The notes under the pieces: model-generated | What the model saw: only the letters and a program-made list of their open reading frames with translations | What the model was told of the DNA's origin: nothing | The model's database searches: none | Translations under genes and position numbers: made by a program | Shown: one piece after another, positions 33,468 through 53,574 of the stretch | How the letters are laid out: each line of letters starts with the position of its first letter | Position numbering within the stretch: the stretch's first letter is position 1 | From: Fibrobacteria bacterium | GTDB taxonomy: Bacteria > Fibrobacterota > Fibrobacteria > UBA5070 | NCBI GenBank assembly: GCA_035604215.1 | Contig: DATNIW010000073.1 | Coordinates: forward strand, 348 to 64,347 | Direction of reading: 5' to 3' | DNA length: 64,000 nt

Positions 33468-36400
33468 GTGAAATTTGCCCTCAGCGCGACATTTTTGATA
33501 TCCCTCGCTGGACCCTCGATGGTCCAGGCGGCTGACCCCGTACCCTACGACTCCATCGCCAATCCGTTGAGCGAACTTCCGACGACGGTGACCAACATCC
33601 AGCAGATGGGGGACACCATGAACCGGGTCCCCGGCAGGGTGCGTGTCAACCAGGCCGGGTACCGGTTGGCGGACATCCAGAAGGGGTGGGGTCGGATCTA
33701 CTACGTGGATGCCGGGAGTGCGAAAAGCTTCACCGTCATCAATGGTTCGAACGTCGCTGTCGCCACGGGCCCGTTGACCTCCAGGGGACAGAGAGTCCAA
33801 GGGCGAGTGATCCCGTTCGCCTACTACAACGCCGCCACCCCCACCCGAATCAGCCTTCCCGGCTACAACAACGCCACGGGGATGGCCGGTTCCAGAGCTA
33901 CCGCGGGAACCCTCGACCAAGGATTCCTGCCCACGACCCTCCCCTGGGGACGGTACCGCGTGGTCGTGGGTACGGACACGTCGGAGCCGTTCATCGTCAG
34001 CGACAACGTGTACGGGATGGCCCGTGACGCCGCCATCAAGTTCTTCGGGGTGGCGCGCAGCGGCGAATACCAATCTTGGTTCCATCCCGCCTCCCACATG
34101 TGGGACGGCTGGCTCTACGACAGCGCTGCCAAGAACCCTGACGGCACATACAAATACAAGGGAGCCCTGACAGGAGGGTGGTACGACTGCGGCAACCATT
34201 TGAAGGAAAGCCGGACCATGAGCTATTCGCTCGCGGCTTTGGGAATGCTGGCTGCGACGATGCACGACAAGGACGTGGACCACTACGCCTTGAACCAAGC
34301 CTACACCCAACAGACGGATGGAATTCCGGATGTCCTCCGCGAGGCGTGGGTGGGTAGCCAGTTCGCTTTGAAGTCCTTCCGCTTGGCCCAGGGAAACACC
34401 GCCAACATGTACCTGTCCGTGGGGAATCCACCGGGAGGACCTGGACCGAACCAGGGTGTGGATTTCCTGTGGTGGGGTAGGCCGGAGAATCAGGACCAGG
34501 TGACCGACATCAATCGCGGGGGCGCGAACGAGCGCAACGTGGTCAAGAATTGGGGAACCCCATCCATGGCCGACTGGGCGGCGGGATTGGCCTTCGTATC
34601 CCGAATGTACCGACCCTACGATCCGAGCTTCTCCGACACCGCCCTGATCATGGCCAAGGCGATGTACGCGCAAGCCAAGAAGACGAACGCGGCGGAAGGG
34701 GGCAGCGACTACGATGGCGAGACCATCGTCATCGACGATCTCGCGCTGGCGGCGGTCGCGCTGCTTTGGGCGACGCACGACGTCACCTATCTGAACGATG
34801 TGGCCTACACGCCGGGAATGGTCAACGGACTGGGAGGCACTTGCGCCGCCTCCAACGCGGGGACCGCCACGAACCGGTTCAACGGGGGATATTTCGGCTG
34901 CGGAAGCAACGGAATCATCAAGAACAGTGGAACTTCCTGGGCGAACATCGAGAGCTTTTCCCTCTATTCCATGATCAAGCTGATTCTGGTGGATCCGGAT
35001 ACCGCGCAAAATTACGGGATCGCCCCCGCCCAGCGCGACACGCTGCTTCTCCGGTGTCTGAACAACCTGATCGGTACCGAATTGTCCGGAGCCGGAAAGA
35101 CGTTCACGCTGCCGATCGGCGGATATTCTCCTGCGATGGTTTCCTATGACAGCCTTTGGTACAACATGAACTACGGATCTGGTGTTCCCGGCTGGTTCAA
35201 CAAATACGAGTTTGGCCATTTCGCGGATCTCTACATGTATTGGGACGCCACGTCCATCGTCGATCAAAAGCCGTTGTTGAATGTTCCCGCGACGCCCGGC
35301 TATTGGATGCGCGACACCGTTCAACATCTCATCGTGGACGGCATGGATTACATGTTCGGGATGAATGCCATGGACCTGTCCTACCTCATGGGCGTCGGGC
35401 ACAAGAATCCCAACCACCCCCACCATCGAGCTGCAAATCCCGAGGGCAAGAATGTTCCCGGGGCATACTACAACTACAGCATTCCCGTGGGCGGACTTTG
35501 GGGAGGGCCGGCCTATTCGGACACCGTCGTGAAGGACCTCTGGGAAAACCAGGTGTCGGTTTCCGAGGCGAACTGTCCGGATGCATCCGCGGCAGTGATG
35601 ATTCCGTTGATGGGCTTGTCCAGAGCGGAACCCGTTGTGGCTCCTGTGCCCACGGTCTCCGTATTGAGCTCCTCCGACACCTCCGCCGTGATCCAGGTGA
35701 ATCTCGACAAGTACGGCTTCGTCAAAATCGGATACGGCACCGATTCGAGCGGCAGCGGACAGATGACCTACGTGAACAGCACGGACAGCGGGGTGACGCT
35801 CAGAGTCACCCTCAACAAACTGACCCCGGGGACCAAGTACTACTTCTCCGTGACCGCGAGCGACGTGGAGGGAGACCAGACCTTCTCCCACGCTTGGGTG
35901 CAGTCGAATGGTGATTCGATCCCCTACAACTTCACCACGCTCTCCAGCGTTGCGAGCAATCCGAGCTATTCGAACATCAAGGTGTGCAACGTCACGGCTG
36001 ATTCCGCCGAGGTGATGTGGGTCACGCCCAATGGGACCTTCCCGTCGGCCGTCGCCTTCGACGACAGCGCGGATTGGGTGGCGGGAAAACGCATCGAGGT
36101 GGACACCGACGAAACGGGTCCGATCTCCGTCGAATTCCACAGGGTGCTTTTGACAGGACTCAAGGAACAAACCACGTACTACTTCCAGGTCGGCGTCCCG
36201 GGAAGCTTCGGCTCCGTGGTGGGTTGCTTCCGCACTCCGGTCGAGGATGTGAAATTCGATATCCGGGCCAGTCGCTACAACTGGCCGGAGGGGCCGGACA
36301 ACACCTACACGGGGTCCTCGGGTTCCGTCATGCGTGCGCTCAGCCTTGGGGTCACCAACCAGGACAGCAAGTCCTACGATTCCCTCATGCTTCGCATCTA

Positions 36401-39400
36401 TCTGCGCGGCACCAAGTACTACCCGGACAGCATGGTCGATTTCGGTGCCCGTTGCGACATCGGATTCGCCTACATGTCGGACGGGTACATCGATTCGGGC
36501 TTCGAATCGATGGTCGACGGTGCGCTCCGGGTTTCGTACGCGCAAAAGGTCGATTCCACCTGTCCGGACAATTCCGTTTGCGACTGGTACTTCAACATTC
36601 CGCTTTACGACAGCGCGGAAGCGCCGGTGATGGAATCCCAGGCGAGATTCCGGCTGGACGTGCTGTTCGACACGCACAAGTACGAGATCAACAACGCCAC
36701 TGGACAATACCAGGTCTATCCGGACCTCATGAACCACGCTCCGGCGCACGATCCGTTCGCGGTGGGGACGAAGGACTGGTCGTTCCGGATCCACGTGGCC
36801 GGCGCCGACAATGGGTTGTCGCCCGTCAACTACGCGGGAGTCCCCTTCGCCGACAAGAATGCGCTGGACGACTCCTCGCAGAACATTCCCGTCGAACCCT
36901 ACATCGCGGTCTACCGCAAGAACACCTTCGTGTACGGATATTCGCCCAATCCAGTCGAACAGGCGACCAAGCGCACGGTCTACGCCATGAACGTGGCATT
37001 CGATCCCCCGTTCAACCAGCAGAACGGGGCGCCCATCGTGCTTTCGAGCGGTGCGCGCACGATCAACATCACCGGAACCGCGGACGTGTACGACCAGCTG
37101 ATGCCGGTGGCAAAGGGGTACATCACCTCCATCTGGATCAATGGAACGGCGCTCGCCCCACCGGTACTCGCCTCCGCGATTTCCAAACAAGCGGACGGGA
37201 CGTGGAAATTCGATATCCCCGTGACTCTGGCATCGGGCACCAACAACCTGAACGTCACCATCTTCGCGGGCAGCGATTCGGCCGATACGACGCCCACGGG
37301 AACGTGTCAGGAGGGCAACGGGTGCGCGTTCGCCGCGCGAGAGTGGCTTGTCAACAGCGTCTCCAACCGGACCGCCTCCGCGCTCGCAATCGTCGACGGC
37401 TCCAATGTCGCCGCAGGTCCGCGCGTGACGTCGGACAGCTCGCAGATCAACATCCGAGTCACGGACGGTGACAACAACCTGATGCCCCTTGTGAAAGACA
37501 CGGTGCTGGTCACCATCACCGACCTGCGGACGGGACAGAAGCAGGTGCTCAAGCTGGTGGAAACAGGAGTTGCCACCGGAGTCTTCGAGAGCGGTCTGCT
37601 TCCCGTGACCAGCGGTCTACCGGTCGCCGGAAAGATCTCGGTCCTTCCGGGTGACAGCGTGCTGGTGAAGTACGTGGACGCCACCGACGCCACCGATTCG
37701 TCCCAAGCGTACCTCTACGCGAAGGCCGTGTGGCCCGTACCCTTGCACGCCGGGGTCTTTCGCGACTGTGGCGGCAACTACTCGGTGCAGGCCCTGTTCA
37801 ATCCTGTCTTCGCCGCCTCCGGTTGGGACACCGCCCGCGTCGTACTGCACTCGGGTCTGGATTCCGTCGTCGACGTGGTCAAACCGTCCAGCATATCCAC
37901 CACGGGTGGATCGACACTCGTCATCCCGGTTTCCGGGCTTGCGGGAAGCAGCCTGACCGGCAGACTCTCCGTTCAGGTAGCCAACGGCACGGGTGGATGG
38001 ATCACGGAATCGGTGGCAGTGGACGACAGCATCGGACCCTGGGTGGATTCCGCGAAGATGGTGCAGAACCTGACAGGAAACCCAAAGGACTCCGTCTTCT
38101 TCTGGGCTTCGGAGCCCGTGGTCCTGGGGACCGGTTGGCCCTTCCTCGTGGAGCGGGCGGGCGCCGCAGTCCCGGCATCGTCCTTCACCGGTGCGGTCGT
38201 CTCGCTTCTGGACGCCGCCACGGACAAGTATCTGGCGGTCCTGCCCGCGGGCAAGCTGCTGGCCGGAGACTCGGTGCGGTTCGATCCGGCCTTGGTGGTC
38301 GACGGCCACGGGAACGCCGCCCTGGATTGCCCCGGAGGCAGGAAGGTCCAGCTCATCTCCGTGGCCTATGCGGGTCTGGGCGCTTCGCTCACCGAGGCTT
38401 GCGGCGGTGCCTATTCCGTGAAGGCGTTGTTCAACAAGGCCTTCACGGCCACCGGCGGCTACGACACCGGATTCGTCACGCTCTCCAGCGGTGCCGCCAC
38501 GGTCGGTCCCTTCGCGGTGCCCCCGGGATCCATCTCCGTGGACGCCAGCGGCAAGACCTTGACCCTGCCGTTGCCCGGCCTGACCTATGGAAGCGGCTGG
38601 ACCGGTCGCCTGGACCTGCAGGTCACGGGCGACACCGGGGCGATGCACGTCGTCTCCATCGCGGTCGCCGACGGGGTCGGGCCTTGGATCGATTCCGCGA
38701 AGATCGTACAGAATCTGACCGGCAATCCCGTGGACTCCGTCTTCTTCTTCGCCTCGGAGCCCTTGGTCCTCTCCTCCGGGTGGCCGTTCCTGGTGGAACG
38801 CGCCGGAACCGCCGTCCCGGCATCGGCCTTCTCCGGCGCCAAGATCTCCCTCCTGGACTCCGCCTCGAACAAGTACCTGGCCTTGCTTCCGGCCAATGAT
38901 CTCGTCTCCGGCGATTCGGTGCGGCTGGCACCCGCTTCCGCGACCGATCTCTCCGGCAATCCGGCCCTGGACTGCCCCTCGCTCCTGCGCCGGGTCACGC
39001 TCGTCGTGCGGCCGGCGCCTCTGGGGAAGGCGTGGATCCTCGACGCGTCCGGCGACGGCAGGGCCGACCAGGTCGATCTCGTCTTCGGCAAGACCCTCAC
39101 CGCCACCGATCTGCCGGATTCCGTCGTGATCCGGTTCGGGATCCACGACTCGTCGCGCACGGTCGTGGTTTCCATGGCACAGGCGACCGACTCGCTCCTT
39201 TCCATCTCCCTGCCCGTTCCGTTCTCCTTCGGGATCACCACCGGCTCGGCCGCGAATGGTTCCGGGACCGTCTCGCTCTGGAAATCCGGCGAACCCGTGG
39301 GACCGTACGTCCTCTCCGACAGCGTGGGCCCCGTCCTCGTCTCGGCAGGCGTGCGCTACGGTTCGAACCTCGACACGTTGAGCCTGGGCTTCTCCGAGCC

Positions 39401-40727
39401 GGTCCGGCGCGGCGTGGGTGTCGGGTGGCTCTTGGGCCAGCCTGCCGTGGAACTCGGGACCTCCGGGGCTCCCGATTCGCTGTCGCCCACCCAATGGCTT
39501 CTTCCGGTCGTGGCAGGGTCGGTTTCTCCGGGGGATTCGGTACGACCCGTCCCTTCCGAGCAATGGGTGGAAGGTCGCACCGGACGTCCGGTGGCTCCAG
39601 CCCAGCCGTGGATCCCCGTGACCGGAGGCGAACGACCGCCCTTGTACGGTTGGTACAGCGACATCGACGGAAACGGAGCGGTGGACCAGGCCGTGGTCGT
39701 CTTCTCCAAGACTCCCAAGTCCCGGCCGGGCATGCTCCTCCTGTGGCCGTCACCTTCCAGCGGATTCGACACCGCGAAGGTGGACAGCGGCGCGTGGAAC
39801 CTGAATGCGGACGGCCTCACCACCACCATCCCGGTGGGTCCCTTCGCGCAGGGCATCACGTCTTCCCCCACAACCAACTTGGGCAAATGGGTCTCGGCGG
39901 GGACGTGGAACTTCCCGATGTACGACAGCGTGCCTCCGGTGCTGGTGTCCGCCGCGGTGCGCTACGCATCGCAGGACGGGATCCCGGACACCTTGCATGT
40001 GCGCTGGAGCGAGCCCATCGACTGGAACGGCGCGGGATCGCTGGTCCGACACCGCCTCGCCGGTGTGGAGAATCCCGTGCTGGCCTCGGGCGGCATCCCC
40101 GACGCGGACGGCATGGGTGAACAGATCCTGATGACCCTCGATACCATCCAGTTGCGCAAGGGGGATTCGGTCGCCTTCACGGCGGGCAACGTGTCGGATC
40201 TCCTGGGCAACGCGGTGCCCCAGACCACCCGCTGGGTGCCCGTGACCTTCGGCCTGCGTCCGGTGCAGATCAGCTTCGTCTTCCAGAGCTACATGGAATA
40301 CACCGGCTGGAATCCTCCGTCGGGGCCTGCGATGCAGGTCTGGATGCGCGGGCGCGGCGACGCCGTGTGGCTGAACACCGACAGCAGCGCCGTGTCGGAC
40401 ACCACCCACGTGATCGGCGCCACCATCACCATCAACAACCCCGTCGGCGGGGCCATCTACATCTACGACAACGCGGGGACCTTCGTGGCCTCGCTGGACC
40501 TCTCCCCGATCCCGGCGCTGGCGGCCCAGGGGCGCCTCCCGACCGATCCTTCCGGCATGTACCAGATCCGGATCGGATGGAACGGGATGACGGAAAACGG
40601 AAAATGGTCGTCCAGCGGGATCTACCTGATGCGGATCGTCCTGACGGGAACGGGTCTGCACGGCGGGAACACCACGGGCATCTTCAACCAGGTGTACAAG
40701 CTCGGCTTCAAGCGGCCGACCAAGTAG
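33468..40727 (+). CDS. Giant secreted GH9-family protein (copy 1): Ig-like N-domain, GH9 domain, 2 Fn3-like domains, CBM3-like segment, many Ig-like repeats, T9SS-type C-terminal domain
   Basis: GTG start with GGAG 8 nt upstream; 2,419 aa. Signal peptide 'ISLAGPSMVQA'. 'VRVNQAGYR' (CelD_N-like). GH9 blocks 'GGWYDCGNHLKE', 'NPNHPHHRAANPEG', 'SEANCPDASAA'. Fn3-like 'LTPGTKYYFSV' and 'LKEQTTYYFQV'. C-terminal tail 'IYIYDNAGTFVASL...WNGMTENGKWSSSGIYLMRIVL...YKLGFKRPTK' (FlgD-Ig / Por secretion-tail-like). Confidence 0.85.
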   Translation: MKFALSATFLISLAGPSMVQAADPVPYDSIANPLSELPTTVTNIQQMGDTMNRVPGRVRVNQAGYRLADIQKGWGRIYYVDAGSAKSFTVINGSNVAVATGPLTSRGQRVQGRVIPFAYYNAATPTRISLPGYNNATGMAGSRATAGTLDQGFLPTTLPWGRYRVVVGTDTSEPFIVSDNVYGMARDAAIKFFGVARSGEYQSWFHPASHMWDGWLYDSAAKNPDGTYKYKGALTGGWYDCGNHLKESRTMSYSLAALGMLAATMHDKDVDHYALNQAYTQQTDGIPDVLREAWVGSQFALKSFRLAQGNTANMYLSVGNPPGGPGPNQGVDFLWWGRPENQDQVTDINRGGANERNVVKNWGTPSMADWAAGLAFVSRMYRPYDPSFSDTALIMAKAMYAQAKKTNAAEGGSDYDGETIVIDDLALAAVALLWATHDVTYLNDVAYTPGMVNGLGGTCAASNAGTATNRFNGGYFGCGSNGIIKNSGTSWANIESFSLYSMIKLILVDPDTAQNYGIAPAQRDTLLLRCLNNLIGTELSGAGKTFTLPIGGYSPAMVSYDSLWYNMNYGSGVPGWFNKYEFGHFADLYMYWDATSIVDQKPLLNVPATPGYWMRDTVQHLIVDGMDYMFGMNAMDLSYLMGVGHKNPNHPHHRAANPEGKNVPGAYYNYSIPVGGLWGGPAYSDTVVKDLWENQVSVSEANCPDASAAVMIPLMGLSRAEPVVAPVPTVSVLSSSDTSAVIQVNLDKYGFVKIGYGTDSSGSGQMTYVNSTDSGVTLRVTLNKLTPGTKYYFSVTASDVEGDQTFSHAWVQSNGDSIPYNFTTLSSVASNPSYSNIKVCNVTADSAEVMWVTPNGTFPSAVAFDDSADWVAGKRIEVDTDETGPISVEFHRVLLTGLKEQTTYYFQVGVPGSFGSVVGCFRTPVEDVKFDIRASRYNWPEGPDNTYTGSSGSVMRALSLGVTNQDSKSYDSLMLRIYLRGTKYYPDSMVDFGARCDIGFAYMSDGYIDSGFESMVDGALRVSYAQKVDSTCPDNSVCDWYFNIPLYDSAEAPVMESQARFRLDVLFDTHKYEINNATGQYQVYPDLMNHAPAHDPFAVGTKDWSFRIHVAGADNGLSPVNYAGVPFADKNALDDSSQNIPVEPYIAVYRKNTFVYGYSPNPVEQATKRTVYAMNVAFDPPFNQQNGAPIVLSSGARTINITGTADVYDQLMPVAKGYITSIWINGTALAPPVLASAISKQADGTWKFDIPVTLASGTNNLNVTIFAGSDSADTTPTGTCQEGNGCAFAAREWLVNSVSNRTASALAIVDGSNVAAGPRVTSDSSQINIRVTDGDNNLMPLVKDTVLVTITDLRTGQKQVLKLVETGVATGVFESGLLPVTSGLPVAGKISVLPGDSVLVKYVDATDATDSSQAYLYAKAVWPVPLHAGVFRDCGGNYSVQALFNPVFAASGWDTARVVLHSGLDSVVDVVKPSSISTTGGSTLVIPVSGLAGSSLTGRLSVQVANGTGGWITESVAVDDSIGPWVDSAKMVQNLTGNPKDSVFFWASEPVVLGTGWPFLVERAGAAVPASSFTGAVVSLLDAATDKYLAVLPAGKLLAGDSVRFDPALVVDGHGNAALDCPGGRKVQLISVAYAGLGASLTEACGGAYSVKALFNKAFTATGGYDTGFVTLSSGAATVGPFAVPPGSISVDASGKTLTLPLPGLTYGSGWTGRLDLQVTGDTGAMHVVSIAVADGVGPWIDSAKIVQNLTGNPVDSVFFFASEPLVLSSGWPFLVERAGTAVPASAFSGAKISLLDSASNKYLALLPANDLVSGDSVRLAPASATDLSGNPALDCPSLLRRVTLVVRPAPLGKAWILDASGDGRADQVDLVFGKTLTATDLPDSVVIRFGIHDSSRTVVVSMAQATDSLLSISLPVPFSFGITTGSAANGSGTVSLWKSGEPVGPYVLSDSVGPVLVSAGVRYGSNLDTLSLGFSEPVRRGVGVGWLLGQPAVELGTSGAPDSLSPTQWLLPVVAGSVSPGDSVRPVPSEQWVEGRTGRPVAPAQPWIPVTGGERPPLYGWYSDIDGNGAVDQAVVVFSKTPKSRPGMLLLWPSPSSGFDTAKVDSGAWNLNADGLTTTIPVGPFAQGITSSPTTNLGKWVSAGTWNFPMYDSVPPVLVSAAVRYASQDGIPDTLHVRWSEPIDWNGAGSLVRHRLAGVENPVLASGGIPDADGMGEQILMTLDTIQLRKGDSVAFTAGNVSDLLGNAVPQTTRWVPVTFGLRPVQISFVFQSYMEYTGWNPPSGPAMQVWMRGRGDAVWLNTDSSAVSDTTHVIGATITINNPVGGAIYIYDNAGTFVASLDLSPIPALAAQGRLPTDPSGMYQIRIGWNGMTENGKWSSSGIYLMRIVLTGTGLHGGNTTGIFNQVYKLGFKRPTK
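37728..39017 (+). repeat. Intragenic tandem duplication, two units of 645 nt (215 aa), within GH9 giant 1
   Basis: Matching strings sit at a constant +645-nt offset: GATTCCGCGAAGAT at 38046 and 38691. Further shared strings are 'GACTCCGTCTTCTTCT' and 'GTCCCGGCATCG'. At protein level 'GPWVDSAKMVQNLTGNPKDSVFFWASEPVVLGTGWPFLVERAGAAVPAS' matches 'GPWIDSAKIVQNLTGNPVDSVFFFASEPLVLSSGWPFLVERAGTAVPAS'. Confidence 0.85.
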
Positions 40728-40735
40728 GGGGATGG

Positions 40736-43700
40736 ATGGGGATGCGCTCGATCCATTCCCTGGTCTGGGCGGGAATCCTGGCGGGACAGGGCTTCGCCGC
40801 GACCATCGACCAGACCTGCGCCACCTGCGGGCGTCGGGCGTTGGATTCCGCCAACATGACCATCGATCCCGTCCGGGTCAACCAGGTGGGCTACCGGAAC
40901 GACGACCCCCACAAGAGGGCCTACGTGGGAAGCCCAAAGGCCACCACGTTCGGCGTGGTGCGCTCCGACGGAAAGGTGGTCTTCACCGGGACCCTGGCCA
41001 ACCAGGGGACGTTCCCGTACAAGGGTCGGATCCTGGTCAAGGGCTACTACAACTCCATCACGCCCCTCTACCAGTTCCAGAACACCAACGACACCGATTC
41101 CGCCTCCGCGGCCTCCAACGAGGCCATCTGGACGGCGGACTTCGGGTCGTTGACGGATTCCGGCACCTACCGGGTGGCGGTGGGTCCCGACACCTCGCAT
41201 CCCTTCGACATCCGGATGACCGTCTACAACGACGTCTTCGAGAACACGCTCAAGTACTTCGGGATCGAGCGCTCCGGCGACAACGATTCCTGGATGCACG
41301 GGCCCAGCCACCTGAAGGACGGATCGGGTCGGCCCGGAGGCGCCGCCGACGCGGGAAGCCTGGCGGGGGGATGGTACGACTGCGGGGACTACTTCAAGGT
41401 GGGCCAGACCGACGCCTACGCCTTCACCAACCTGATGCTGGCCTACACGCTCTGGCCGCGCAAGGCCGAGGACCGCTACGGCTCGTCGTACCTGGACACC
41501 CTCCCGTTCGGCAACGACGGCATTCCCGACCTGCTGCGCGAGGCCAAGATCGGCGCCGACTACGTGGTGAAGCTCTACCGCGCCTCCGTGGCCGACGGAC
41601 TGGTCGCGAAGAACGACATGTACCAGGAGGTGGGCGTGTGGGACAACGACCACCAGTACTGGGACCAGCCGGAACGCCAGGACGTGGCGCCGGTGGCCCA
41701 AGGGGGGCCTCCGAGGCCCGTGGACGCGGGTGCCGGAGCCGCGGTGGCGGCGGCCTACGCCGGTTCGCTCGCCCTGTTCGCCAAGGCGTGGATCCCCTTC
41801 GATCCGGTCTATGCCGATTCCTGTCTGCAGATCGCCAAGACCATCTACTCCAAGGTCGTGATTCCCAACTGGAACAAGCCCGGATTCGCACCCACCGCCT
41901 TCTACATCACCCAGGGCCGATGGGACGACGACCTGGCCTGGGCCGCCACCGGACTCTGGTACGCCACCGGGGACACCTCCTACAAGTTCGACCTGATGGA
42001 GAACACCAAGTTCTCCGTCAACGCGAACTACTGCGCCGCCGGGTCCAACTGCTACGCGAACAACCTGGAATTCGTCGCTCCCGCGGGGTTCATGGGCGGT
42101 GACAAGGGCAACATGGGGAACGGGTCGGGACTGTTCTCCCCGGGCGGTTGGCCGATGGACTACCAGAACACGTTCATCCACACGACCTGGGCGCTGTGGG
42201 ACCTCTTCTACAAGACCGACACCCTGGCCGCCAAATGGGGAATACCCGCCTCGGACGCGCAGGACTTCCGCAAGCGCCTCCTGGTGCTGGTCGGAAAACG
42301 CTACGCGGGCGAAAGCACGAACGGCAACGCCGTGTATCCAGGCACGGACGCCCACGTCCTGACCCCCTACGATCTGGTGTGGAGTTCCATCACGTGGGGC
42401 ATGAACCGCTACAACCTGGGAGGACTCCTTCCCCTGGTGGCCTACCACGAGATGATCAAAGGCGACAGCGCGGCCTCGGCCTCCAACTACTGGAACATCA
42501 TCCTCGACAACATGAACTACAACCTGGGGGCCAACCCCTGGGACATCAGTTTCCAGATGGGCGCGGGATCCAAGAACCTGCAGCACCCGCACAACCGGAT
42601 CGCGAATCCGGAAGGCTACAACGCGGGAGGCATTCCCTACCCGTACCGCTCGCCCAAGGGCGCGCTGATGGGCGGGGCGGTGCCCGGACAACTCCTGCGC
42701 GACGAATGGGAGAAGTACGACGTCACGGAAACCTGCATCGACTTCGCGGCGCAGGTGGTGCTGCCGTCGCAGTACCTCGCCCTGGATCTTCCCCCTGACA
42801 CGGTCGGTCCCGCATTCTCCAACGTGGTCGTGGTCTGGGTCTCGGACACCTCCGCCATCGTCTCCTGGCAGACCGACAAGCTCTCCATGGATTCCCTCTT
42901 CTACAGCCTCAGTCCCGGCGGGCCGGTGGTGGGAACCGCGGTGGGTGCCCTGGGCAAGAACAAGTCGGCCACCTTGACGGGCCTTTCGGTCGCCACCACC
43001 TACTACTTCTGGTTCAAGGGAACGGACATCTACAACATGGTGTCCTCCGACAACAACCGAGGGCGCGACTACCAGTTCACCACCACCAGCGCCACCGCGC
43101 CGCAACCGTCGATCTCCGACGTCAAGGCGTGCAACATCCAGGCAACCCAGGCCACCATCTTCTGGTGGACGGACGTCCCTTCCACGTCCCAGGTGGACTA
43201 CTACCCGGAGGCCACACCCTCCGCCAAGCTGTCGGTGGTGGGCGACGACGAAGGAATGCCGGGTCGATTCCACAAGGTGACCCTCAAGGGCTTGAGCCCC
43301 AATACCGCCTACCGCTACGACGTGGTTTCGGGCGGAGCGAAGGACGACAGCGGGGGATTGGACTACCGGTTCGTCACCCAGACGGATTTCGCCAACTACA
43401 CCATCCAGATCAAGGCCACCACCAAGAACAACAACGGTGCGGGGGCGCACTTCTACATCGAGGTGGCCAACAACGAGAACAAGCCCTACGTGGGTCTGCA
43501 GCTGCGCCTCTACTTCCAGACCGACGCCACGACGGCGGCCACCATCGTGGCGCACACCAGCGACGACGCGATCTTCGGCGTCACCGGGACCATGATCCAG
43601 TCGGGGCCGGGCGTGGTGACCATCGGAGCGCCGGTCGCGGTCGCGGGCATGACGAACTATTGGTACCTGCCCATCGTCATCAACGACACCCTGCCCGTCG

Positions 43701-46700
43701 CGGGGCGCGCGCGCATCGAACTGAAGATGGACGACAGCAACTGGAACCCAAAGCCCTGGTCCATCTTCGCCACGGGATGGTCGCTGGTGCCGCACACCAC
43801 GCCGGTGGCCTTCCCCGGCGTGGACATGACCTTGGCGGACCTCTGGGCCGGTCCCGACGAGGTGGAGATGCGAAACGGCGCTCCCGTGATCACCTACGTC
43901 CAGGATCCGTACATCGCCGCCTATTCCAACGGGGTCCACATCTACGGCTACACTCCCGACGGCGACCTGCCCAAGATTCCGCGCACCGTGGCCTTCACCT
44001 TCACGGGCCCGCTTCCGAGTCCGGCGACTTCCGTGAAGCAGGACACCTTCAACGTCCACTTCTCCGGTCGCACCTGGGGAACACCCGACGTCACGGCCAT
44101 GAACGTGCAGCGCGACAGCCCCGCCTTCGTGCCCACGATCCCCATCGGCGGGCGCGTGGATTCGGTGAGCTTCGCGCAGGTGGTGCCGGACCCCCAGGGG
44201 ACGACGTCCCACGAATGGGCCTTCTGGGCCGACCGCACCACGCCGCTGTGCGCCTGCGCCTGGCAGCGATACACGGTGACCGTGGACACCATGAAGGTGC
44301 CTCCGCGCGCCCTCCACATCGCTTGGAGCCCGGCGGGGCCCGTGGACGTCTGGACCACCCAACGCAAACCCATCTCCGTGTTCCTGCTGGACTCGGCGGG
44401 CGACACGCTGGACACGGTGTCCACCGTTGCCTTGTCCGCAGGTGTCCCCGGCTTGAAGTTCTGGACTTCCTCCACGGGTGCGACATCGACCACGACCGTC
44501 TCCCTGCTGCACGGGACGGCCCAGATCTGGGTGTCCGACAGCCTGGCCGACACCACCAAGGCATACGCCTCCGCGTCCATCCCGGCTTCCATCGTGACCT
44601 CGGGAGCCGTCGCGGTGCGATTCTCGGCGCCGCCGCCCTGGCCTTCGGTGGACAGCGCCTGGACGGTGGACGCGAACTGCGACGGCATGCCCGATTCCGT
44701 GGAGATCCGCTTGTCCTCGGCACTGGACACGGGAACCACCGCAAGCGCGCTGTTCTTGAACATCGGCGGCATGACGGATTCCGTATCCATCGCCGCGGTG
44801 AAGACTTCGACGGACGGCCGGACCCTTGCGGTCCTGGCACCTTCCGGCCTGGGCGGGGCGGCGTCGGGGTCGGGGATCCTCACCCTGCACGTGACCACGG
44901 GAGGGCGCAACCTCTCCATCGCGGACAGCTTCGCCGTGTTCGACAGGGTGTCGCCGCTCCTGCTCTCCGCCTCGGTCCTGGAACGCTTCGCGCCGGGCAA
45001 CGACACGGTGCGGCTCGAATTCTCCGAACCCGTCCAGGTGCCTGCGGGTTGGCCTTTCGCGGTCGTCGGGGGCACGACGCCGTCTTCGGTCCTCTCGGTC
45101 CGCAAGGTTTCGGCCACCATCCTGGAATTCGCCGTGTCCGGGAGTGCCTTCCCGGCGGGCTCCGCGGTGTCCATCGCCACGCCGAGCGCGGTCGTCGACC
45201 TCGCCGGAAACCCTTCCGCCACCTGCTCGGCCCAGGTACCGGTGGTCGTCACTTCCCGTCCCGACCCCATGGTTTCGGCGGTCGTCCGCGATCCCGCCGG
45301 AATCGGCGAGGCCACCGACGTATCCGTCCGATTCGCGCGTGCCGTTCGCGACCAGGACCTTCCCGACTCGCTGGTGCTTCTCTGGGGAGGGACCGCGCAG
45401 ACCATTTCAGCTGCGCAGCTCCAGCGCTCGCCCTCGGACAGTTCCGTGCTGCAAGCCACGCTGGCGGTTCCATCGCTGTCAGGTTCCGGCAGTCTCCCGG
45501 GAGGCGCGGGACAGATCGTGTACCGCAAGGGAACCGGCGCCTCGGGGACTTCGGACACCGTGGCCGCGGCCGACTCCGTGGGACCCGCCCTTCGCACCGC
45601 CACTCTCCGGGCCGGAACAACGGTGGACACCCTGGTCCTGCGCATGTCGGAATTCGACCGCGAAGGACCGGCCCCCCTCCAAGATCTGCAAGTGCTCAGC
45701 GGCCTTTCCCTGCCGGCGGCATCCGTCCGGATCGCCGGGGTGGACTCGGCCCATTGGACCCTCTTGATTCCCTCGGGATTGCTGGTTGCAGGAGACTCGC
45801 TCCGTCTTTCCGGGGCCGCCGCCGGCGCCTGGAGCGATCGCACCGGCAATTCCGCCGCGCCGGCCGCGCCATGGGTGCCGCTCCACGCCGGCGACCGGGC
45901 ACCGGTCGAGGCGTGGGCCACCGACCAGAATGGGGATGGCCAGGTGGATCTGGTGGTCCTGGTCTGGTCCAATCCGCCATCCAGTCGCCACCCCTTCCTG
46001 CTTTCCTGGCCGGATTCCACCGGAGTGGAACGAGTCCACCCGGTGGACAGCGCCACCGGGACCTGGAGCGGCGACACCCTCCGGATTCCGGTGCTGTGGC
46101 CCTTCGGGGCAACCTCAGGACCGGGAGCCGGACAGCAAATGGACGTCTACGACGACGGTTCGGTGGACACCTTGCCCTTCGCGGTCGTCGACAGCGCAGC
46201 CCCTGTGGTCGTCTTCGCGCGGCTGGGTTACGCGGCCCCGGGCGCGACCCTGGATACCTTGGAGGTCCAATTTTCTGAACCCGTCCGATCCGGCGGCGGC
46301 ACCATCCTGCGGGTGCTGGGCACCGATGGGAACATCCACGATGTCGTGGGATTCCAAACCATTCCGTCCATCGACGGGCGGACGGCCTGGATCACCTTGG
46401 ATGCGACGAACCCCGCCTATACCGTATTCCAGAGAGGGGATGCGGTGCAAGCCGATCCAGGGACCTCCGGCGTGCGCGATGCCTTGGGCAACATCGCCTT
46501 GGAAACCGGGCACTTCCAGCCGGTCGTGTTCGGGCAACGCCCCCCACGCTTCTCCCTGGACTTCCTTCCCGGCCAATGGGTGGATGCCACCGGTGGAACC
46601 ACACCGACGTCGCCGTCCACCATCCAGATCCTGGTACGCGCGGCAGGGAGCACCGTCTGGACGGCCCTCGACGGGAGCGCGGTGGATCCCCAGGTGGTGC

Positions 46701-47014
46701 GCATCGGTCCCCACATCCTCTCCAACGGACCGTTGGGAGGGGATGTCATCCTCTTCGACAATCTGGGGACCCACGTCGTATCGCGCGGTCTGGACGATCT
46801 CCAGTCCAGAGCCCAGGCTGGGACGCTTCCCACCGATCCTTCGGGGCAGTGGGAAGCCTGGATCGCCTGGGACGGCCGTTCGGCTCAAGGCAGACCGGCC
46901 GCCTCCGGGGTGTATGCGGAGCGGGTCATCCTCCGGCGCCCTTCGGCCAGCGGGAAAACCTGGACGGGTTGGCTGAACAAGGTCTACCGACTCGGGTGGC
47001 TGCGGAAGAACTGA
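40736..47014 (+). CDS. Giant secreted GH9-family protein (copy 2), collinear paralog of copy 1 with a T9SS-type C-terminal domain
   Basis: The ATG is 8 nt after the copy-1 stop, with GGGGGA upstream; ~2,092 aa. Signal peptide 'LVWAGILAGQGFA'. 'VRVNQVGYR'. GH9 blocks 'GGWYDCGDYFKVGQTDAY', 'LQHPHNRIANPEG', 'TETCIDFAAQ'. Fn3-like 'LSVATTYYFWF' and 'LSPNTAYRYDV'. CBM3-like 'GLQLRLYFQTD'. Tail 'VILFDNLGTHVVS...WDGRSAQGRPAASGVYAERVIL...YRLGWLRKN'. Confidence 0.85.
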   Translation: MGMRSIHSLVWAGILAGQGFAATIDQTCATCGRRALDSANMTIDPVRVNQVGYRNDDPHKRAYVGSPKATTFGVVRSDGKVVFTGTLANQGTFPYKGRILVKGYYNSITPLYQFQNTNDTDSASAASNEAIWTADFGSLTDSGTYRVAVGPDTSHPFDIRMTVYNDVFENTLKYFGIERSGDNDSWMHGPSHLKDGSGRPGGAADAGSLAGGWYDCGDYFKVGQTDAYAFTNLMLAYTLWPRKAEDRYGSSYLDTLPFGNDGIPDLLREAKIGADYVVKLYRASVADGLVAKNDMYQEVGVWDNDHQYWDQPERQDVAPVAQGGPPRPVDAGAGAAVAAAYAGSLALFAKAWIPFDPVYADSCLQIAKTIYSKVVIPNWNKPGFAPTAFYITQGRWDDDLAWAATGLWYATGDTSYKFDLMENTKFSVNANYCAAGSNCYANNLEFVAPAGFMGGDKGNMGNGSGLFSPGGWPMDYQNTFIHTTWALWDLFYKTDTLAAKWGIPASDAQDFRKRLLVLVGKRYAGESTNGNAVYPGTDAHVLTPYDLVWSSITWGMNRYNLGGLLPLVAYHEMIKGDSAASASNYWNIILDNMNYNLGANPWDISFQMGAGSKNLQHPHNRIANPEGYNAGGIPYPYRSPKGALMGGAVPGQLLRDEWEKYDVTETCIDFAAQVVLPSQYLALDLPPDTVGPAFSNVVVVWVSDTSAIVSWQTDKLSMDSLFYSLSPGGPVVGTAVGALGKNKSATLTGLSVATTYYFWFKGTDIYNMVSSDNNRGRDYQFTTTSATAPQPSISDVKACNIQATQATIFWWTDVPSTSQVDYYPEATPSAKLSVVGDDEGMPGRFHKVTLKGLSPNTAYRYDVVSGGAKDDSGGLDYRFVTQTDFANYTIQIKATTKNNNGAGAHFYIEVANNENKPYVGLQLRLYFQTDATTAATIVAHTSDDAIFGVTGTMIQSGPGVVTIGAPVAVAGMTNYWYLPIVINDTLPVAGRARIELKMDDSNWNPKPWSIFATGWSLVPHTTPVAFPGVDMTLADLWAGPDEVEMRNGAPVITYVQDPYIAAYSNGVHIYGYTPDGDLPKIPRTVAFTFTGPLPSPATSVKQDTFNVHFSGRTWGTPDVTAMNVQRDSPAFVPTIPIGGRVDSVSFAQVVPDPQGTTSHEWAFWADRTTPLCACAWQRYTVTVDTMKVPPRALHIAWSPAGPVDVWTTQRKPISVFLLDSAGDTLDTVSTVALSAGVPGLKFWTSSTGATSTTTVSLLHGTAQIWVSDSLADTTKAYASASIPASIVTSGAVAVRFSAPPPWPSVDSAWTVDANCDGMPDSVEIRLSSALDTGTTASALFLNIGGMTDSVSIAAVKTSTDGRTLAVLAPSGLGGAASGSGILTLHVTTGGRNLSIADSFAVFDRVSPLLLSASVLERFAPGNDTVRLEFSEPVQVPAGWPFAVVGGTTPSSVLSVRKVSATILEFAVSGSAFPAGSAVSIATPSAVVDLAGNPSATCSAQVPVVVTSRPDPMVSAVVRDPAGIGEATDVSVRFARAVRDQDLPDSLVLLWGGTAQTISAAQLQRSPSDSSVLQATLAVPSLSGSGSLPGGAGQIVYRKGTGASGTSDTVAAADSVGPALRTATLRAGTTVDTLVLRMSEFDREGPAPLQDLQVLSGLSLPAASVRIAGVDSAHWTLLIPSGLLVAGDSLRLSGAAAGAWSDRTGNSAAPAAPWVPLHAGDRAPVEAWATDQNGDGQVDLVVLVWSNPPSSRHPFLLSWPDSTGVERVHPVDSATGTWSGDTLRIPVLWPFGATSGPGAGQQMDVYDDGSVDTLPFAVVDSAAPVVVFARLGYAAPGATLDTLEVQFSEPVRSGGGTILRVLGTDGNIHDVVGFQTIPSIDGRTAWITLDATNPAYTVFQRGDAVQADPGTSGVRDALGNIALETGHFQPVVFGQRPPRFSLDFLPGQWVDATGGTTPTSPSTIQILVRAAGSTVWTALDGSAVDPQVVRIGPHILSNGPLGGDVILFDNLGTHVVSRGLDDLQSRAQAGTLPTDPSGQWEAWIAWDGRSAQGRPAASGVYAERVILRRPSASGKTWTGWLNKVYRLGWLRKN

Positions 47015-53573: not shown

Positions 53574-53574
53574 C

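What the first reader, a model, noticed from the sequence alone, without database searches (positions are those of the whole stretch)
33468..47014. Two tandem giant GH9-family proteins (13.5 kb) with T9SS-type C-terminal domains, probably one bicistronic unit
The genes are 7,260 and ~6,279 nt long and are separated by 8 nt that carry a Shine-Dalgarno-like GGGGGA. The two proteins are collinear: signal peptide, CelD_N-like Ig domain, GH9 catalytic domain, two Fn3-like modules, a CBM3-like segment ('LRIYL'/'LRLYFQ'), then over 1,000 aa of Ig-like modules. The Ig-like modules carry repeated 'D.AGN/D.SGN' and 'D..GDG.vD.v.v.F' motifs. Each protein ends in a ~90-aa FlgD-Ig/Por-tail-like C-terminal domain, and both share 'LPTDPSG...W.G....G...SG(I/V)Y'.

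GH9 enzymes are normally 600-1,000 aa. Here the catalytic module is only the tip of an adhesin-sized stalk. That suggests cell-surface-tethered polysaccharide-binding or degrading fibres exported through the SprA-like translocon encoded 24 kb upstream.
Basis: partly seen in the sequence, partly recalled or inferred. Interest (0 to 1): 0.62.

Follow-up and report, generated by a model that had tools for sequence, protein, structure and literature searches.

The report
Tandem giant stalked GH9 surface proteins
An uncultured peat Fibrobacteria bacterium encodes two neighbouring, co-transcribed 220-260 kDa secreted proteins that carry a cellulase-type (GH9) head on a long stalk of Ig-like domains; the family is common in this cellulose-degrading phylum but has never been assayed, and the first copy has lost the residue that normally does the cutting.

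Summary
Gene A (33468-40727, 2419 aa) and gene B (40736-47014, 2092 aa) are collinear paralogues. Each has a signal peptide, a CelD_N Ig domain, a GH9 domain, two Fn3 modules, a possibly CBM3-like beta-sandwich, 9-11 Ig-like modules and a basic ~110-aa C-terminal domain (CTD).

The CTD ends 13 large proteins of this genome. It resembles FlgD-Ig and T9SS type A tails but scores below the curated cut-offs. SprA, PorV and a PorU-like C25 peptidase are present. GldK/L/M/N were not detected.

Metatranscriptome contigs cross the 8-nt junction between the genes.

The pair is not unusual for the phylum. Homologous giant GH9 genes, often in tandem, occur in 187 of 296 Fibrobacterota genomes. The 233-kDa FSU_0809 of Fibrobacter succinogenes S85 and its GH9 neighbour FSU_0810 appear to belong to the same family.

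New here: A belongs to a monophyletic clade (22 sequences) with fixed changes at the catalytic base (DxxD to DxxN) and at four other conserved positions. Its GH9 domain is nevertheless its best-conserved part. A is probably a non-hydrolytic or re-specialised partner of the intact B. Verdict: a real member of a catalogued but uncharacterised family, with a pseudo-enzyme twist.

The parts
33468..40727 (+). Gene A: 2419-aa (256.5 kDa, pI 5.0) giant GH9-family protein of clade A (DxxN)
   Evidence: ORF and translation. Pfam domains. Mass and pI. 90% identical homologue P0003 and about 20 further clade-A homologues.
33468..33530 (+). A signal peptide (VKFALSATFLISLAGPSMVQA|AD)
   Evidence: Read directly from the translation: hydrophobic core followed by VQA|A. 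This is inference; no predictor was run.
33633..33992 (+). A CelD_N-like Ig domain (weak)
   Evidence: PF02927 scores 19 bits, below the 24.6-bit cut-off. The region aligns with B's clear CelD_N domain.
34011..35627 (+). A GH9 domain with a remodelled active site
   Evidence: PF00759, E 9e-42. Aligns with Cel9G 1g87. It is the best-conserved region of clade A, at 62% identity.
34194..34196 (+). Codon AAC = Asn243, at the position of the GH9 catalytic base (Asp58 of T. fusca Cel9A; motif DAGD reads DCGN here)
   Evidence: The position is N in 22 of 22 clade-A sequences and D in 46 of 46 other giant GH9 sequences. Source DNA contigs agree.
35640..36242 (+). A two Fn3-like modules
   Evidence: PF16656 and PF00041 hits.
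36243..37007 (+). A beta-sandwich module X (possibly CBM3-like; motifs LRIYL, DWSF, PYIAVYRKNTFVYGYSP)
   Evidence: AlphaFold2 model. The CBM3 link rests only on a PDB hit at E 1.3 plus the order of the motifs. Pfam gives no hit.
37008..40394 (+). A stalk: about 11 Ig-like beta-sandwich modules, including double-module repeats with DxxGDGxxD loops
   Evidence: AlphaFold2 pLDDT 81 and 92. Foldseek matches to multi-Ig arrays. Internal repeats: 1435-1630 vs 1646-1846 at 59% identity, and 1856-2057 vs 2062-2265 at 32%. The repeats are shared with PA14/fibro-slime ORFs.
40395..40724 (+). A C-terminal domain (basic, pI 9.5; FlgD-Ig / T9SS type-A-like)
   Evidence: Genome-wide HMM iteration finds it at the C-terminus of 13 ORFs. 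TIGR04183 scores 21.3 bits against a 23-bit cut-off. FlgD_ig. Beta-sandwich in the model.
40728..40735 (+). 8-nt spacer between A's stop codon and B's ATG, with GGGGGA overlapping the stop
   Evidence: RNA contigs cross it. In locus L004 the stop and start codons overlap (TGATG).
40736..47014 (+). Gene B: 2092-aa (222 kDa, pI 5.0) giant GH9 protein with an intact catalytic triad
   Evidence: Orthologues at 59-86% identity in loci L001-L004.
40736..40798 (+). B signal peptide (MGMRSIHSLVWAGILAGQGFA|AT)
   Evidence: Read from the translation. This is inference.
40868..41011 (+). B CelD_N Ig-like domain
   Evidence: PF02927, 53 bits.
41225..42760 (+). B GH9 catalytic domain (Asp215/Asp218 in DCGD; DH motif; Glu665)
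   Evidence: PF00759, E 1.5e-59. The alignment with 1g87 places Glu665 on the catalytic acid Glu420 of Cel9G. Coordinates.
42803..43384 (+). B two Fn3-like modules
43385..43990 (+). B module X (possibly CBM3-like; LRLYFQ, GWSLVPH, PYIAAYSNGVHIYGYTP)
43991..46681 (+). B Ig-like stalk
   Evidence: Collinear with A's stalk at 34% identity. Internal repeats.
46682..47011 (+). B C-terminal domain (pI 10.1)
2890..9774 (+). SprA/Sov-type translocon gene (2294 aa), 23.7 kb upstream
   Evidence: PF14349 SprA_N, 65 bits, E 6e-18. SprA_N is found in 146 of 151 Fibrobacterota genomes.
47056..47658 (+). Small HTH(MerR/HTH_17)-PAS regulator gene, 41 nt after B. A link to the pair is unproven.

Best explanation
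A and B are a co-transcribed pair of Sec-exported giant surface proteins. They belong to the Fibrobacterota 'giant GH9' family, the same family as the tandem 233-kDa FSU_0809 and FSU_0810 of Fibrobacter succinogenes.

Each protein has a substrate-engaging head at its N-terminus: a CelD_N Ig domain, a GH9 cleft, two Fn3 modules and a possibly CBM3-like sandwich. A stalk of about 9-11 Ig-like modules follows. These are double-Ig repeats with Ca-loop-like DxxGDGxxD motifs, and the same repeats occur in the fibro-slime/PA14 adhesins of this organism. The protein ends in a basic ~110-aa beta-sandwich C-terminal domain.

That C-terminal domain is the common sorting or anchoring tag of at least 13 large surface proteins in this genome. 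It most likely directs transport across the outer membrane through the SprA/PorV translocon, with processing by the PorU-like C25 peptidase. The head would then stand tens of nanometres from the cell, or be shed (both are inferred).

B keeps Asp215/Asp218 and Glu665 and should be an inverting beta-1,4-glucanase. A keeps the catalytic acid Glu700 and most of the cleft. It has fixed changes at the catalytic base (Asp to Asn243), at the neighbouring DH histidine (to Phe333) and at a conserved W...R pair (to G575/K579). A most likely binds glucan chains with little or no hydrolysis, or has a changed activity, and works beside the active paralogue.

Shown: the domain architecture, the homology, the fixed substitutions, the recurrence of the C-terminal domain, the presence of SprA, PorV and PorU, and RNA crossing the junction. 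Inferred: the export route, tethering, the substrate and A's loss of hydrolysis.
For: Architecture.

Active sites:
- A aligns GGWYDCGNH with GGWYDAGDH of Cel9G.
- B has DCGD, and its Glu665 aligns with Glu420 of Cel9G.
- Asp55/Asp58/Glu424 form the catalytic centre of T. fusca Cel9A, and azide rescue shows Asp58 to be the base (PMC4071793, citing Li et al. 2007; also PMC4221708).
- Clade A is monophyletic: N in 22 of 22 sequences against D in 46 of 46 others. It also has H333F, W575G, R579K, A254P and A676G fixed, while 83 of 99 conserved columns are kept.
- The GH9 domain is the most conserved part of clade A, at 62% identity.
- Every contig examined pairs an A copy with at least one DxxD copy.

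C-terminal domain:
- It sits strictly at the C-terminus of 13 ORFs. These include four PA14/fibro-slime proteins, a Calx-beta adhesin and an Fn3/YDG/MBG protein.
- Of 29 domain copies, 23 hit FlgD_ig, 10 hit TIGR04183, 8 hit the PorZ model and 6 hit the PorU model. The PorU-model match to the C179 tail falls in that model's last ~70 positions.
- A profile of the domain hits the C-terminal domains of PorZ (5m11, residues 712-742) and PorU (6za2, residues 1086-1147), weakly.
- The tails have pI 9.5 and 10.1 in proteins of pI 5.0. This matches the basic BTD/CTD tails described for F. succinogenes (PMC6851124).

Machinery: SprA_N 65 bits; PorV PF19572 37 bits against a 27-bit cut-off; Peptidase_C25 198 bits, plus NF033707 183 bits.

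Operon: 8-nt spacer, no + strand terminator-like site. RNA contigs cover 39946-40905, 40668-40830 and 40669-40859.

Family context. FSU_0809 is 233 kDa and found in the cell envelope (PMC4619616). It lies in tandem with FSU_0810 (PMC3079729), is highly and constitutively expressed (PMC6204037), and is found in the outer membrane and the medium (PMC4668043).
Against: - No enzyme or binding assay exists for any member of the family.
- Asp240 (the Asp55 equivalent) remains in A. It might partly replace the base, so A may keep some activity.
- The C-terminal domain is below the curated cut-offs of TIGR04183 and PF18962. At the sequence level it is closer to FlgD_ig.
- GldL, GldM and GldN models found nothing (the single GldM_1st match was a chemoreceptor), and the only GldK match is a lone FGE-type domain outside any operon, in this 87.5%-complete genome. 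GldN was found in none of 151 Fibrobacterota genomes. A canonical T9SS motor and ring may therefore be missing. These negative searches had no positive control.
- The RNA contigs are ~93% identical, so they come from a related strain. Metatranscriptomes can also contain DNA.
- In F. succinogenes the homologue was about 6-fold more abundant in the medium than in the outer membrane (PMC4668043). That argues for release rather than firm tethering.
- The substrate is unknown. GH9 also includes xyloglucanases.
Confidence: 0.6

Rival explanations
1. Both A and B are ordinary active endoglucanases. The Asp-to-Asn change in A is tolerated because the first Asp of the motif (Asp240) activates the water. 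The pair is then simply two isozymes.
For: A keeps Asp240, Glu700 and the HPHHR motif, and 83 of 99 conserved catalytic-domain columns. Its GH9 domain is under the strongest constraint of any region. Both Asp residues are described as contributing to base catalysis (PMC4221708).
Against: Azide rescue assigns the base role to Asp58 (PMC4071793). The D-to-N change is fixed together with H333F, W575G and R579K in the whole clade, whereas all 46 other giant GH9 sequences keep D, H, W and R. This is the pattern of a functional shift, not of neutral drift.
Confidence: 0.2
2. The C-terminal domain is not a T9SS signal. It is a Fibrobacterota-specific FlgD-Ig-like module that anchors or sorts surface proteins by another route, or that stays on the mature protein as a cell-wall or outer-membrane binding domain.
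For: 23 of 29 domain copies match FlgD_ig, 1 of 29 matches Pfam Por_Secre_tail, and 10 of 29 match TIGR04183 below its cut-off. No GldL/M/N were detected here, and the only GldK match is a lone FGE-type domain. GldN was detected in none of 151 genomes of the phylum. At ~110 aa the domain is longer than typical type A tails. An earlier scan note (e1-2650258) suggests the Fibrobacter tail stays on the mature protein.
Against: SprA is near-universal in the phylum, in 146 of 151 genomes. A PorV-domain protein and a PorU-like C25 peptidase are present. The weak hits fall exactly on the C-terminal domains of PorZ and PorU. The tail is strictly C-terminal, basic, and sits on many unrelated cargo proteins. 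Related BTD tails in F. succinogenes are annotated TIGR04183 and are absent from mature peptides (PMC6851124).
Confidence: 0.25
3. The proteins are not tethered fibres. They are released, free or on outer-membrane vesicles, as very large soluble glucanase or binding proteins. The Ig modules would then act as spacers or protease-resistant linkers.
For: Fisuc_0393 was about 6-fold more abundant in the extracellular medium than in the outer membrane (PMC4668043).
Against: The same protein was found in cell-envelope and outer-membrane cellulose-binding fractions (PMC4619616; PMC4668043, citing Jun et al. 2007). The stalk and C-terminal domain are shared with fibro-slime adhesins.
Confidence: 0.3
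4. The heads act on a non-cellulosic beta-glucan, such as xyloglucan or mixed-linkage glucan, or on a self-made exopolysaccharide. They would not be cellulases.
For: GH9 includes xyloglucan-specific enzymes; BoGH9A is among A's PDB hits. No CBM was confirmed. The habitat is peat, which is rich in hemicellulose.
Against: The best PDB matches are cellulases: Cel9G, CelD, Cel9M and E4. Fibrobacterota are cellulose specialists, and FSU_0809 was recovered as a cellulose-binding protein (PMC4668043).
Confidence: 0.2

Closest known systems
Fibrobacter succinogenes S85 FSU_0809/FSU_0810 (Fisuc_0393/0394), tandem GH9 genes; FSU_0809 is 233 kDa
   Same: Both are tandem GH9 pairs with a signal peptide and no annotated CBM. 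FSU_0809 is of similar size (233 kDa; the size of FSU_0810 was not checked). FSU_0809 is found in the cell envelope, outer membrane and medium, and is highly expressed (PMC4619616, PMC3079729, PMC4668043, PMC6204037). Fibrobacteraceae homologues match A at E 5e-192 and 32% identity (P0056). ORFs of about 2150-2250 aa, often in tandem, occur across the large genus g10.
   Different: The Fibrobacteraceae clade keeps DCGD. Its C-terminal tail is more diverged and more Lys-rich. I did not align the FSU_0809 sequence itself. The window's A belongs to a separate DxxN clade seen in this genus and family and in metagenomic sequences.
T9SS-linked multimodular cellulases of Bacteroidota (e.g. 'Candidatus Paraporphyromonas polyenzymogenes', Cytophaga hutchinsonii GH9/GH8 'large proteins')
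   Same: Both have a GH head, Ig/Fn3 modules and a C-terminal beta-sandwich sorting domain, in an organism of the FCB superphylum that encodes SprA, PorV and PorU (PMC5831590).
   Different: Here the tail is below the TIGR04183 cut-off and is FlgD-Ig-like. GldK/L/M/N were not detected. The stalks are longer and are built from lineage-specific double-Ig repeats.
Fibro-slime (PA14, TIGR02148-type) cellulose-binding adhesins of Fibrobacterota
   Same: They share the double-Ig stalk repeats and the C-terminal domain, both in public homologues P0068-P0080 and in ORFs on C5, C6, C111 and C115 of this genome.
   Different: The head is PA14/fibro-slime instead of CelD_N-GH9-Fn3-Fn3-X.
Theme-D GH9 cellulases with an N-terminal Ig domain (A. 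thermocellum CelD 1clc, CbhA/CelK 1rq5/1ut9)
   Same: They share the CelD_N Ig + GH9 arrangement and the catalytic motifs of B.
   Different: Those enzymes are 600-1200 aa, carry dockerins or CBM4/CBM3 modules, and have no Ig stalk or C-terminal sorting domain.
Catalytically inactive glycoside-hydrolase-like binding proteins (e.g. GH18 chi-lectins). This comparison rests on my own knowledge.
   Same: The GH fold is conserved under purifying selection while a catalytic residue is replaced. This suggests binding without cleavage.
   Different: The family is different, and no such GH9 pseudo-enzyme is known to me. Inactivity of clade A is inferred, not measured.

Membership tests
Glycoside hydrolase family 9 | Match to the GH9 catalytic-domain model above the curated cut-off | tested here: met
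   PF00759 scores 144 bits for A and 203 bits for B, against a 27.7-bit cut-off. PDB GH9 hits.
Glycoside hydrolase family 9 | Catalytic base pair Asp-x-x-Asp (Asp55/Asp58 of T. fusca Cel9A) | tested here: not met
   A has D240-C-G-N243. B meets the feature, with D215-C-G-D218. A is therefore a GH9-fold protein but not demonstrably a GH9 enzyme.
Glycoside hydrolase family 9 | Catalytic acid Glu near the C-terminus of the domain | tested here: met
   B Glu665 aligns with Glu420 of 1g87. A Glu700 aligns with B Glu665.
Glycoside hydrolase family 9 | Measured beta-1,4-glucanase activity | not testable with these tools
   No assay exists for any family member; FSU_0809/0810 are listed without a confirmed activity (PMC3079729).
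T9SS type A cargo | C-terminal domain matches TIGR04183/PF18962 at the curated cut-off | tested here: not met
   TIGR04183 scores 21.3 bits for A against a 23-bit cut-off, and nothing for B. Among domain-family members, 10 of 29 match TIGR04183 and 1 of 29 matches PF18962, all sub-threshold.
T9SS type A cargo | Strictly C-terminal beta-sandwich domain shared by many unrelated secreted proteins of the same genome, together with an N-terminal signal peptide | tested here: met
   13 ORFs carry the domain 0-2 residues from their end. Their heads are diverse. The tail is a beta-sandwich in the AlphaFold2 model. Signal peptides were read from the sequence.
T9SS type A cargo | Genome encodes the translocon and the attachment complex (SprA/Sov, PorV, PorU) | tested here: met
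   SprA_N 65 bits. PorV PF19572 37 bits against a 27-bit cut-off. Peptidase_C25 198 bits and NF033707 183 bits. The NCBIfam equivalog cut-offs were not reached.
T9SS type A cargo | Genome encodes the PorK/N ring and the PorL/M motor | tested here: inconclusive
   The GldK model hit only a lone FGE domain next to ilvC/glyS. GldL, GldM and GldN found nothing, or a false hit on a chemoreceptor. GldN was found in none of 151 genomes of the phylum. The tool warns that no positive control matched, and the genome is 87.5% complete.
T9SS type A cargo | Cleavage of the C-terminal domain and covalent attachment to anionic LPS | not testable with these tools
   This needs proteomics.
CBM3 | Match to CBM3 by sequence profile or by fold | tested here: inconclusive
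   Pfam matched 0 of 13 members. A profile against PDB gave CBM3 scaffoldin 2xbt at E 1.3, over the C-terminal DWSF...YIAVYRKxxFVYGYSP stretch only. Foldseek with the multi-domain model gave no CBM3 in the top 50.
Fibrobacterota giant GH9 family (FSU_0809/0810 type) | Protein of about 1900-2650 aa with a CelD_N-GH9-Fn3-Fn3 head, an Ig stalk and a C-terminal domain, often in tandem | tested here: met
   About 65 homologues. Found in 187 of 296 genomes of the phylum. Synteny of tandem or triple arrays. The link to FSU_0809 rests on its published size, annotation and tandem position, not on a direct alignment.
Operon (bicistronic unit) | One transcript covers both genes | tested here: inconclusive
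   The spacer is 8 nt and there is no terminator-like site. RNA contigs from three metatranscriptomes span the junction at ~93% identity. Contigs carry no strand information, and DNA carry-over cannot be excluded.

The most novel reading that the evidence does not exclude
Clade A is a conserved GH9 pseudo-enzyme. Its cellulase cleft has lost its catalytic base (D243N, with H333F, W575G and R579K) but is kept under strong selection. It is always encoded beside an intact paralogue on the same kind of ~40-50 nm Ig stalk. It would grip or lift single glucan chains from crystalline cellulose for the active partner to cut. This would be a division of labour that could help explain how Fibrobacterota attack cellulose without cellulosomes or classical exocellulases. 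The pair would be exported by a reduced SprA-PorV-PorU system that lacks a recognisable GldKLMN motor.
Probability: 0.3. Interest if true: 0.7.

Novelty: new member of a known kind. Interest (0 to 1): 0.5.

Why it matters
How Fibrobacter and its relatives degrade crystalline cellulose is a long-standing open question. They have no cellulosome, few CBMs and no processive exocellulases.

The giant tandem GH9 proteins are near-universal in the cellulolytic lineages of the phylum. In F. succinogenes one of them is highly expressed, located in the cell envelope and recovered as a cellulose-binding protein. None has ever been characterised.

This window shows that the family extends to abundant, transcriptionally active peat and permafrost Fibrobacteria, which are relevant to carbon turnover. 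It also shows that one paralogue lineage has turned its active site into something other than a standard hydrolase. That gives a concrete pair (A and B, plus an N243D variant of A) for testing synergy between binding and cutting.

The phylum-wide presence of SprA with an undetectable GldN also raises the question of how this lineage powers T9SS-like export.

Tried and rejected
- **CBM3.** Pfam on the segment and on 13 homologous segments found nothing. A profile against PDB found only E 1.3. Foldseek with the whole 735-aa model was swamped by generic Ig arrays. I left this as inconclusive.
- **Fold search for the C-terminal domain alone.** Not possible.
- **GldK.** The model's only hit was a lone FGE-type domain between ilvC and glyS, with no gldLMN neighbours.
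- **GldM.** The GldM_1st hit on contig C54 turned out to be the coiled coil of an MCP/hemerythrin chemoreceptor. Rejected.
- **GldL, GldM_4th and GldN.** These models found nothing. The controls were also silent, so absence is not proven.
- **Self-BLAST for internal repeats.** The first attempt returned only the identity hit. Segment-wise BLAST solved it.
- **Rfam.** No RNA family at gathering score in 32500-49400.
- **Promoter scan.** No sigma-70-like site. This says little for this phylum.
- **Papers.** Li et al. 2007 (PMC1907127) and Jun et al. 2007 (PMC2045214) are not held. Their results are cited only through papers that quote them.
- **Assembly artefact or pseudogene for A.** Rejected. 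A is a full-length open frame, 22 homologues share the changes, the GH9 domain is the best-conserved region, and the source DNA contigs are identical.

Full report
**Source and setting.** The window is contig C73:348-64347 of a metagenome-assembled genome of 2.78 Mb in 186 contigs, with 65.7% G+C and 87.5% completeness. Close relatives of the genes are all from uncultured Fibrobacteria/Fibrobacterota genomes. The DNA is held in peat, permafrost and soil metagenomes.

**Observation.**
- ORF A runs 33468-40727 (+, GTG start, 2419 aa, 256.5 kDa, pI 5.0).
- ORF B runs 40736-47014 (+, 2092 aa, 222 kDa, pI 5.0). An alternative in-frame ATG lies at 40742.
- A's TAG stop lies at 40725-40727. The spacer is 8 nt, and GGGGGA spans 40727-40732.
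- Pfam finds GH9 in both (A 182-685, E 9e-42; B 164-675, E 1.5e-59). It finds CelD_N clearly in B and only weakly in A, and two Fn3/Pur_ac_phosph_N modules in each.
- BLASTP shows the two proteins to be collinear: 29% identity over the first ~1170 aa and 34% over the last ~730 aa.
- Pfam finds nothing in the ~1400-aa remainder.
- AlphaFold2, run with 56-sequence alignments, gives confident all-beta chains of sandwich domains for A 926-1660 (pLDDT 81.4) and A 1641-2419 (pLDDT 91.8). Foldseek matches these to multi-Ig/Fn3 ectodomains, alpha-2-macroglobulins, S-layer proteins and PorU.
- The stalk is built from ~200-aa double modules. A 1435-1630 and 1646-1846 are 59% identical; this duplication is recent and most homologues lack it. 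A 1856-2057 and 2062-2265 are 32% identical.
- DNA contigs of the source run are identical across the key sites.

Two labels, CBM3 and T9SS C-terminal domain, do not reach statistical support.

**Module X (A 926-1180).** Thirteen family members gave no Pfam hit. A profile of these members gave only a CBM3 scaffoldin (2xbt) at E 1.3. The aligned stretch covers the typical CBM3 C-terminal motifs (DWSF... and ...YIAVYRKxxFVYGYSP, against ...VAVYYNGALVYGTPP). I regard a diverged CBM3-like sandwich as plausible but unproven.

**C-terminal domain.** I built an HMM from the two tails and iterated it over six-frame ORFs of the whole genome. It converged on 13 ORFs, and in each the ~105-aa domain ends 0-2 residues before the stop codon.
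- The carriers are large and diverse: four PA14 (fibro-slime type) proteins, a Calx-beta adhesin, an Fn3/YDG/MBG protein and others.
- Several carriers also share the double-Ig stalk repeats with A. So do ~2000-aa fibro-slime proteins in public data.
- The domain has invariant D25, G28, G75 and Y77 (the SGVY motif). Its pI is 9.5-10.1 within proteins of pI 5.0.
- Of 29 diverse copies scanned singly, 23 match FlgD_ig (best E 9e-7), 10 match TIGR04183, 8 match the PorZ model, 6 match the PorU model, 3 match CHU_C and 1 matches Por_Secre_tail. All are below the curated cut-offs.
- A profile of the domain hits FlgD structures and, weakly, exactly the C-terminal domains of PorZ (5m11, 712-742 of 758) and PorU (6za2, 1086-1147 of 1156).

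This is the behaviour of a diverged, enlarged relative of the T9SS type A tail. It matches the proposal that the basic BTD/Fpm-1 tails of F. succinogenes enzymes are T9SS signals (PMC6851124).

**Secretion machinery.**
- The window's 2294-aa ORF (2890-9771) matches SprA_N.
- Elsewhere in the genome there is a PorV-domain protein (PF19572, 37 bits against a 27-bit cut-off; NF033710, 96 bits).
- There is also a 1167-aa PorU-like protein (Peptidase_C25, 198 bits; NF033707, 183 bits over its N-terminal and catalytic parts).
- The GldK model hit only an isolated FGE-type domain.
- GldL, GldM and GldN models found nothing, or a false chemoreceptor hit.
- Across the phylum, SprA_N is found in 146 of 151 genomes and in 52 of 52 genera. 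GldN is found in none of 151.

The negative searches lacked a positive control. I report the motor and ring as not detected, not as absent.

**Co-transcription.** No + strand terminator-like hairpin lies anywhere between 33468 and 47014. In relatives the spacer ranges from a TGATG overlap (L004) to ~70-95 nt (L002, L003). Contigs assembled from three independent peat or permafrost metatranscriptomes cross the junction: X26 39946-40905, X24 40668-40830 and X25 40669-40859. They are ~93% identical, so they come from a related strain, and one of them has a 7-nt spacer. Other RNA contigs cover parts of both genes. This supports a bicistronic message, with the usual caveats about contigs and DNA carry-over.

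**Family and distribution.**
- A search of 5.8 billion proteins returned about 65 giant (2000-2650 aa) GH9 proteins. Where they are named, the name is 'glycoside hydrolase family 9 protein' of Fibrobacteres, Fibrobacteria or Fibrobacteraceae.
- A's 925-aa head finds relatives at E <= 1e-40 in 187 of 296 Fibrobacterota genomes and in 31 of 70 genera. Most lie in open frames of 1900-2250 aa, and many are in tandem.
- The locus is syntenic. Downstream of the relA/SpoT-TPR gene, relatives carry A-A'-B (P0005 contig) or A'-A-B (L026). The window, L004 and others carry A-B. L002 and L003 have a third giant ORF upstream.
- In F. succinogenes S85, Fisuc_0393/FSU_0809 is a 233-kDa GH9 with a signal peptide, found in the cell-envelope proteome (PMC4619616). 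It is adjacent to the GH9 gene Fisuc_0394/FSU_0810, and neither has a confirmed activity (PMC3079729). It is found in the outer membrane and, more abundantly, in the medium, and had earlier been recovered as a cellulose-binding outer-membrane protein (PMC4668043). It is among the highly and stably expressed CAZyme genes (PMC6204037).

The 'adhesin-sized GH9' is therefore a catalogued, phylum-typical but uncharacterised family. Earlier notes of this scan reached the same view for F. succinogenes and for another tandem pair.

**What is new: the active site of A.**
- Against Cel9G (1g87), A reads GGWYDCGNH where GH9 enzymes read GGWYDAGDH. B reads DCGD, and its Glu665 aligns with the catalytic acid.
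- In T. fusca Cel9A the catalytic centre is Asp55/Asp58/Glu424, and azide rescue identified Asp58 as the base (PMC4071793, PMC4221708). A therefore has Asn243 (codon AAC, 34194-34196) at the base position.
- A maximum-likelihood tree of 70 catalytic domains places all 22 DCGN sequences in one clade. This clade includes the A orthologues of L002-L004. It is nested among DCGD clades (A', and a Fibrobacteraceae clade), and B forms a more distant DCGD clade.
- Of 99 columns that are at least 90% conserved in the 46 other giant GH9 domains, clade A keeps 83. It has six fixed replacements: D243N and H333F (each 100% against 100%), W575G, R579K, A254P and A676G.
- By spacing, W575...R579-Y580 probably corresponds to the W313...R317-Y318 cleft residues of Cel9A. 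This mapping is my inference from memory of that enzyme and was not tested.
- Glu700, the acid, is retained.
- The GH9 domain is the most conserved region of clade A: 62% mean identity, against 36-54% for the other regions that all members share.
- Every contig examined pairs A with at least one DxxD paralogue.

This is the signature of a neofunctionalised, probably non-hydrolytic or weakly hydrolytic, cleft under purifying selection. It is not the signature of a decaying gene.

**Mechanism proposed.** Both proteins are exported by Sec. The signal peptides were read from the sequence. Their basic C-terminal domain targets them to the SprA/PorV translocon, where the PorU-like C25 peptidase may remove the tail and attach the protein. 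They may instead be partly released, as the F. succinogenes data suggest. Because the tail is C-terminal, the head is distal. With about 11 Ig-like modules between X and the tail in A (about 9 in B), at ~4 nm each, the stalk could span about 40-50 nm. This is an estimate. B cleaves beta-1,4-glucan. A binds chains without cutting, or cuts poorly, and cooperates with B. The steps after sequence and fold are inferred.

**Rivals.** The alternatives are:
- A is still active, through Asp240.
- The tail serves a non-T9SS, lineage-specific sorting or anchoring route.
- The proteins are mainly shed.
- The substrate is not cellulose.

Each is weighed in its own section of this report.

**Verdict.** I rate it a new member of a known (catalogued, unassayed) kind, with a clade-level pseudo-enzyme variant worth testing.

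Noticed in passing
L002:12065-12120 region and L003:12302-12340 region (5' part of the B orthologues): The B orthologues in two other Fibrobacteria genomes each carry a single in-frame stop codon near the N-terminus. Position for position with window B, CAG (Gln) reads TAG in L002, and a Tyr codon reads TAA in L003. These may be assembly errors in low-coverage or long-read genomes, or real nonsense mutations.
   Followed up: partly
whole genome and phylum: SprA_N is detected in 146 of 151 Fibrobacterota genomes and in all 52 genera sampled. The GldN Pfam model is detected in none of 151. No GldL/M/N and no gldK operon were found in this genome. Either the T9SS motor and ring are too diverged for Bacteroidota-trained models, or the phylum runs SprA with another energiser. 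The negative searches had no positive control.
   Followed up: partly
window 47056-47658 (+): A 200-aa HTH_17/MerR-type DNA-binding domain fused to a PAS domain is encoded 41 nt after gene B, on the same strand. It could be a regulator of the pair. In L026 the gene after B is a MoxR ATPase instead, so the linkage is not conserved there.
   Followed up: partly
window 16884-21305 (+): A 1474-aa ORF combines a BSP-type peptidase-like domain, PD40 beta-propeller repeats and a C-terminal Omp85-superfamily barrel. This is an unusual fusion for an outer-membrane protein.
   Followed up: no
G000 C42:23512-24744 and 24806-26149 (+): Two adjacent secreted-looking ORFs end in short tails such as '...LPDRFQPGVYFLRAASGALVETRTLLISR'. 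These look like canonical short T9SS type A tails. The genome may therefore use two classes of C-terminal tag: this short type and the long ~105-aa type described here.
   Followed up: no
G000 C58 (L022:2036-4318, minus strand): The PorV-domain barrel is fused behind an N-terminal 'two-component regulator propeller' (Reg_prop) region, in a 761-aa ORF. This is about twice the size of Bacteroidota PorV.
   Followed up: no
window 33468-40727, residues 1435-1846 of A: The ~200-aa double-Ig unit is duplicated in tandem at 59% protein identity. Most clade-A homologues have only one copy, so stalk length varies between close relatives.
   Followed up: partly
window 53491-58483 (+): Two prepilin-type N-methylation-motif genes are followed by motA/motB. 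This peat Fibrobacteria lineage appears to encode flagellar stator-type proteins, unlike what I recall of rumen Fibrobacter, which is described as non-motile (from memory, not checked).
   Followed up: no
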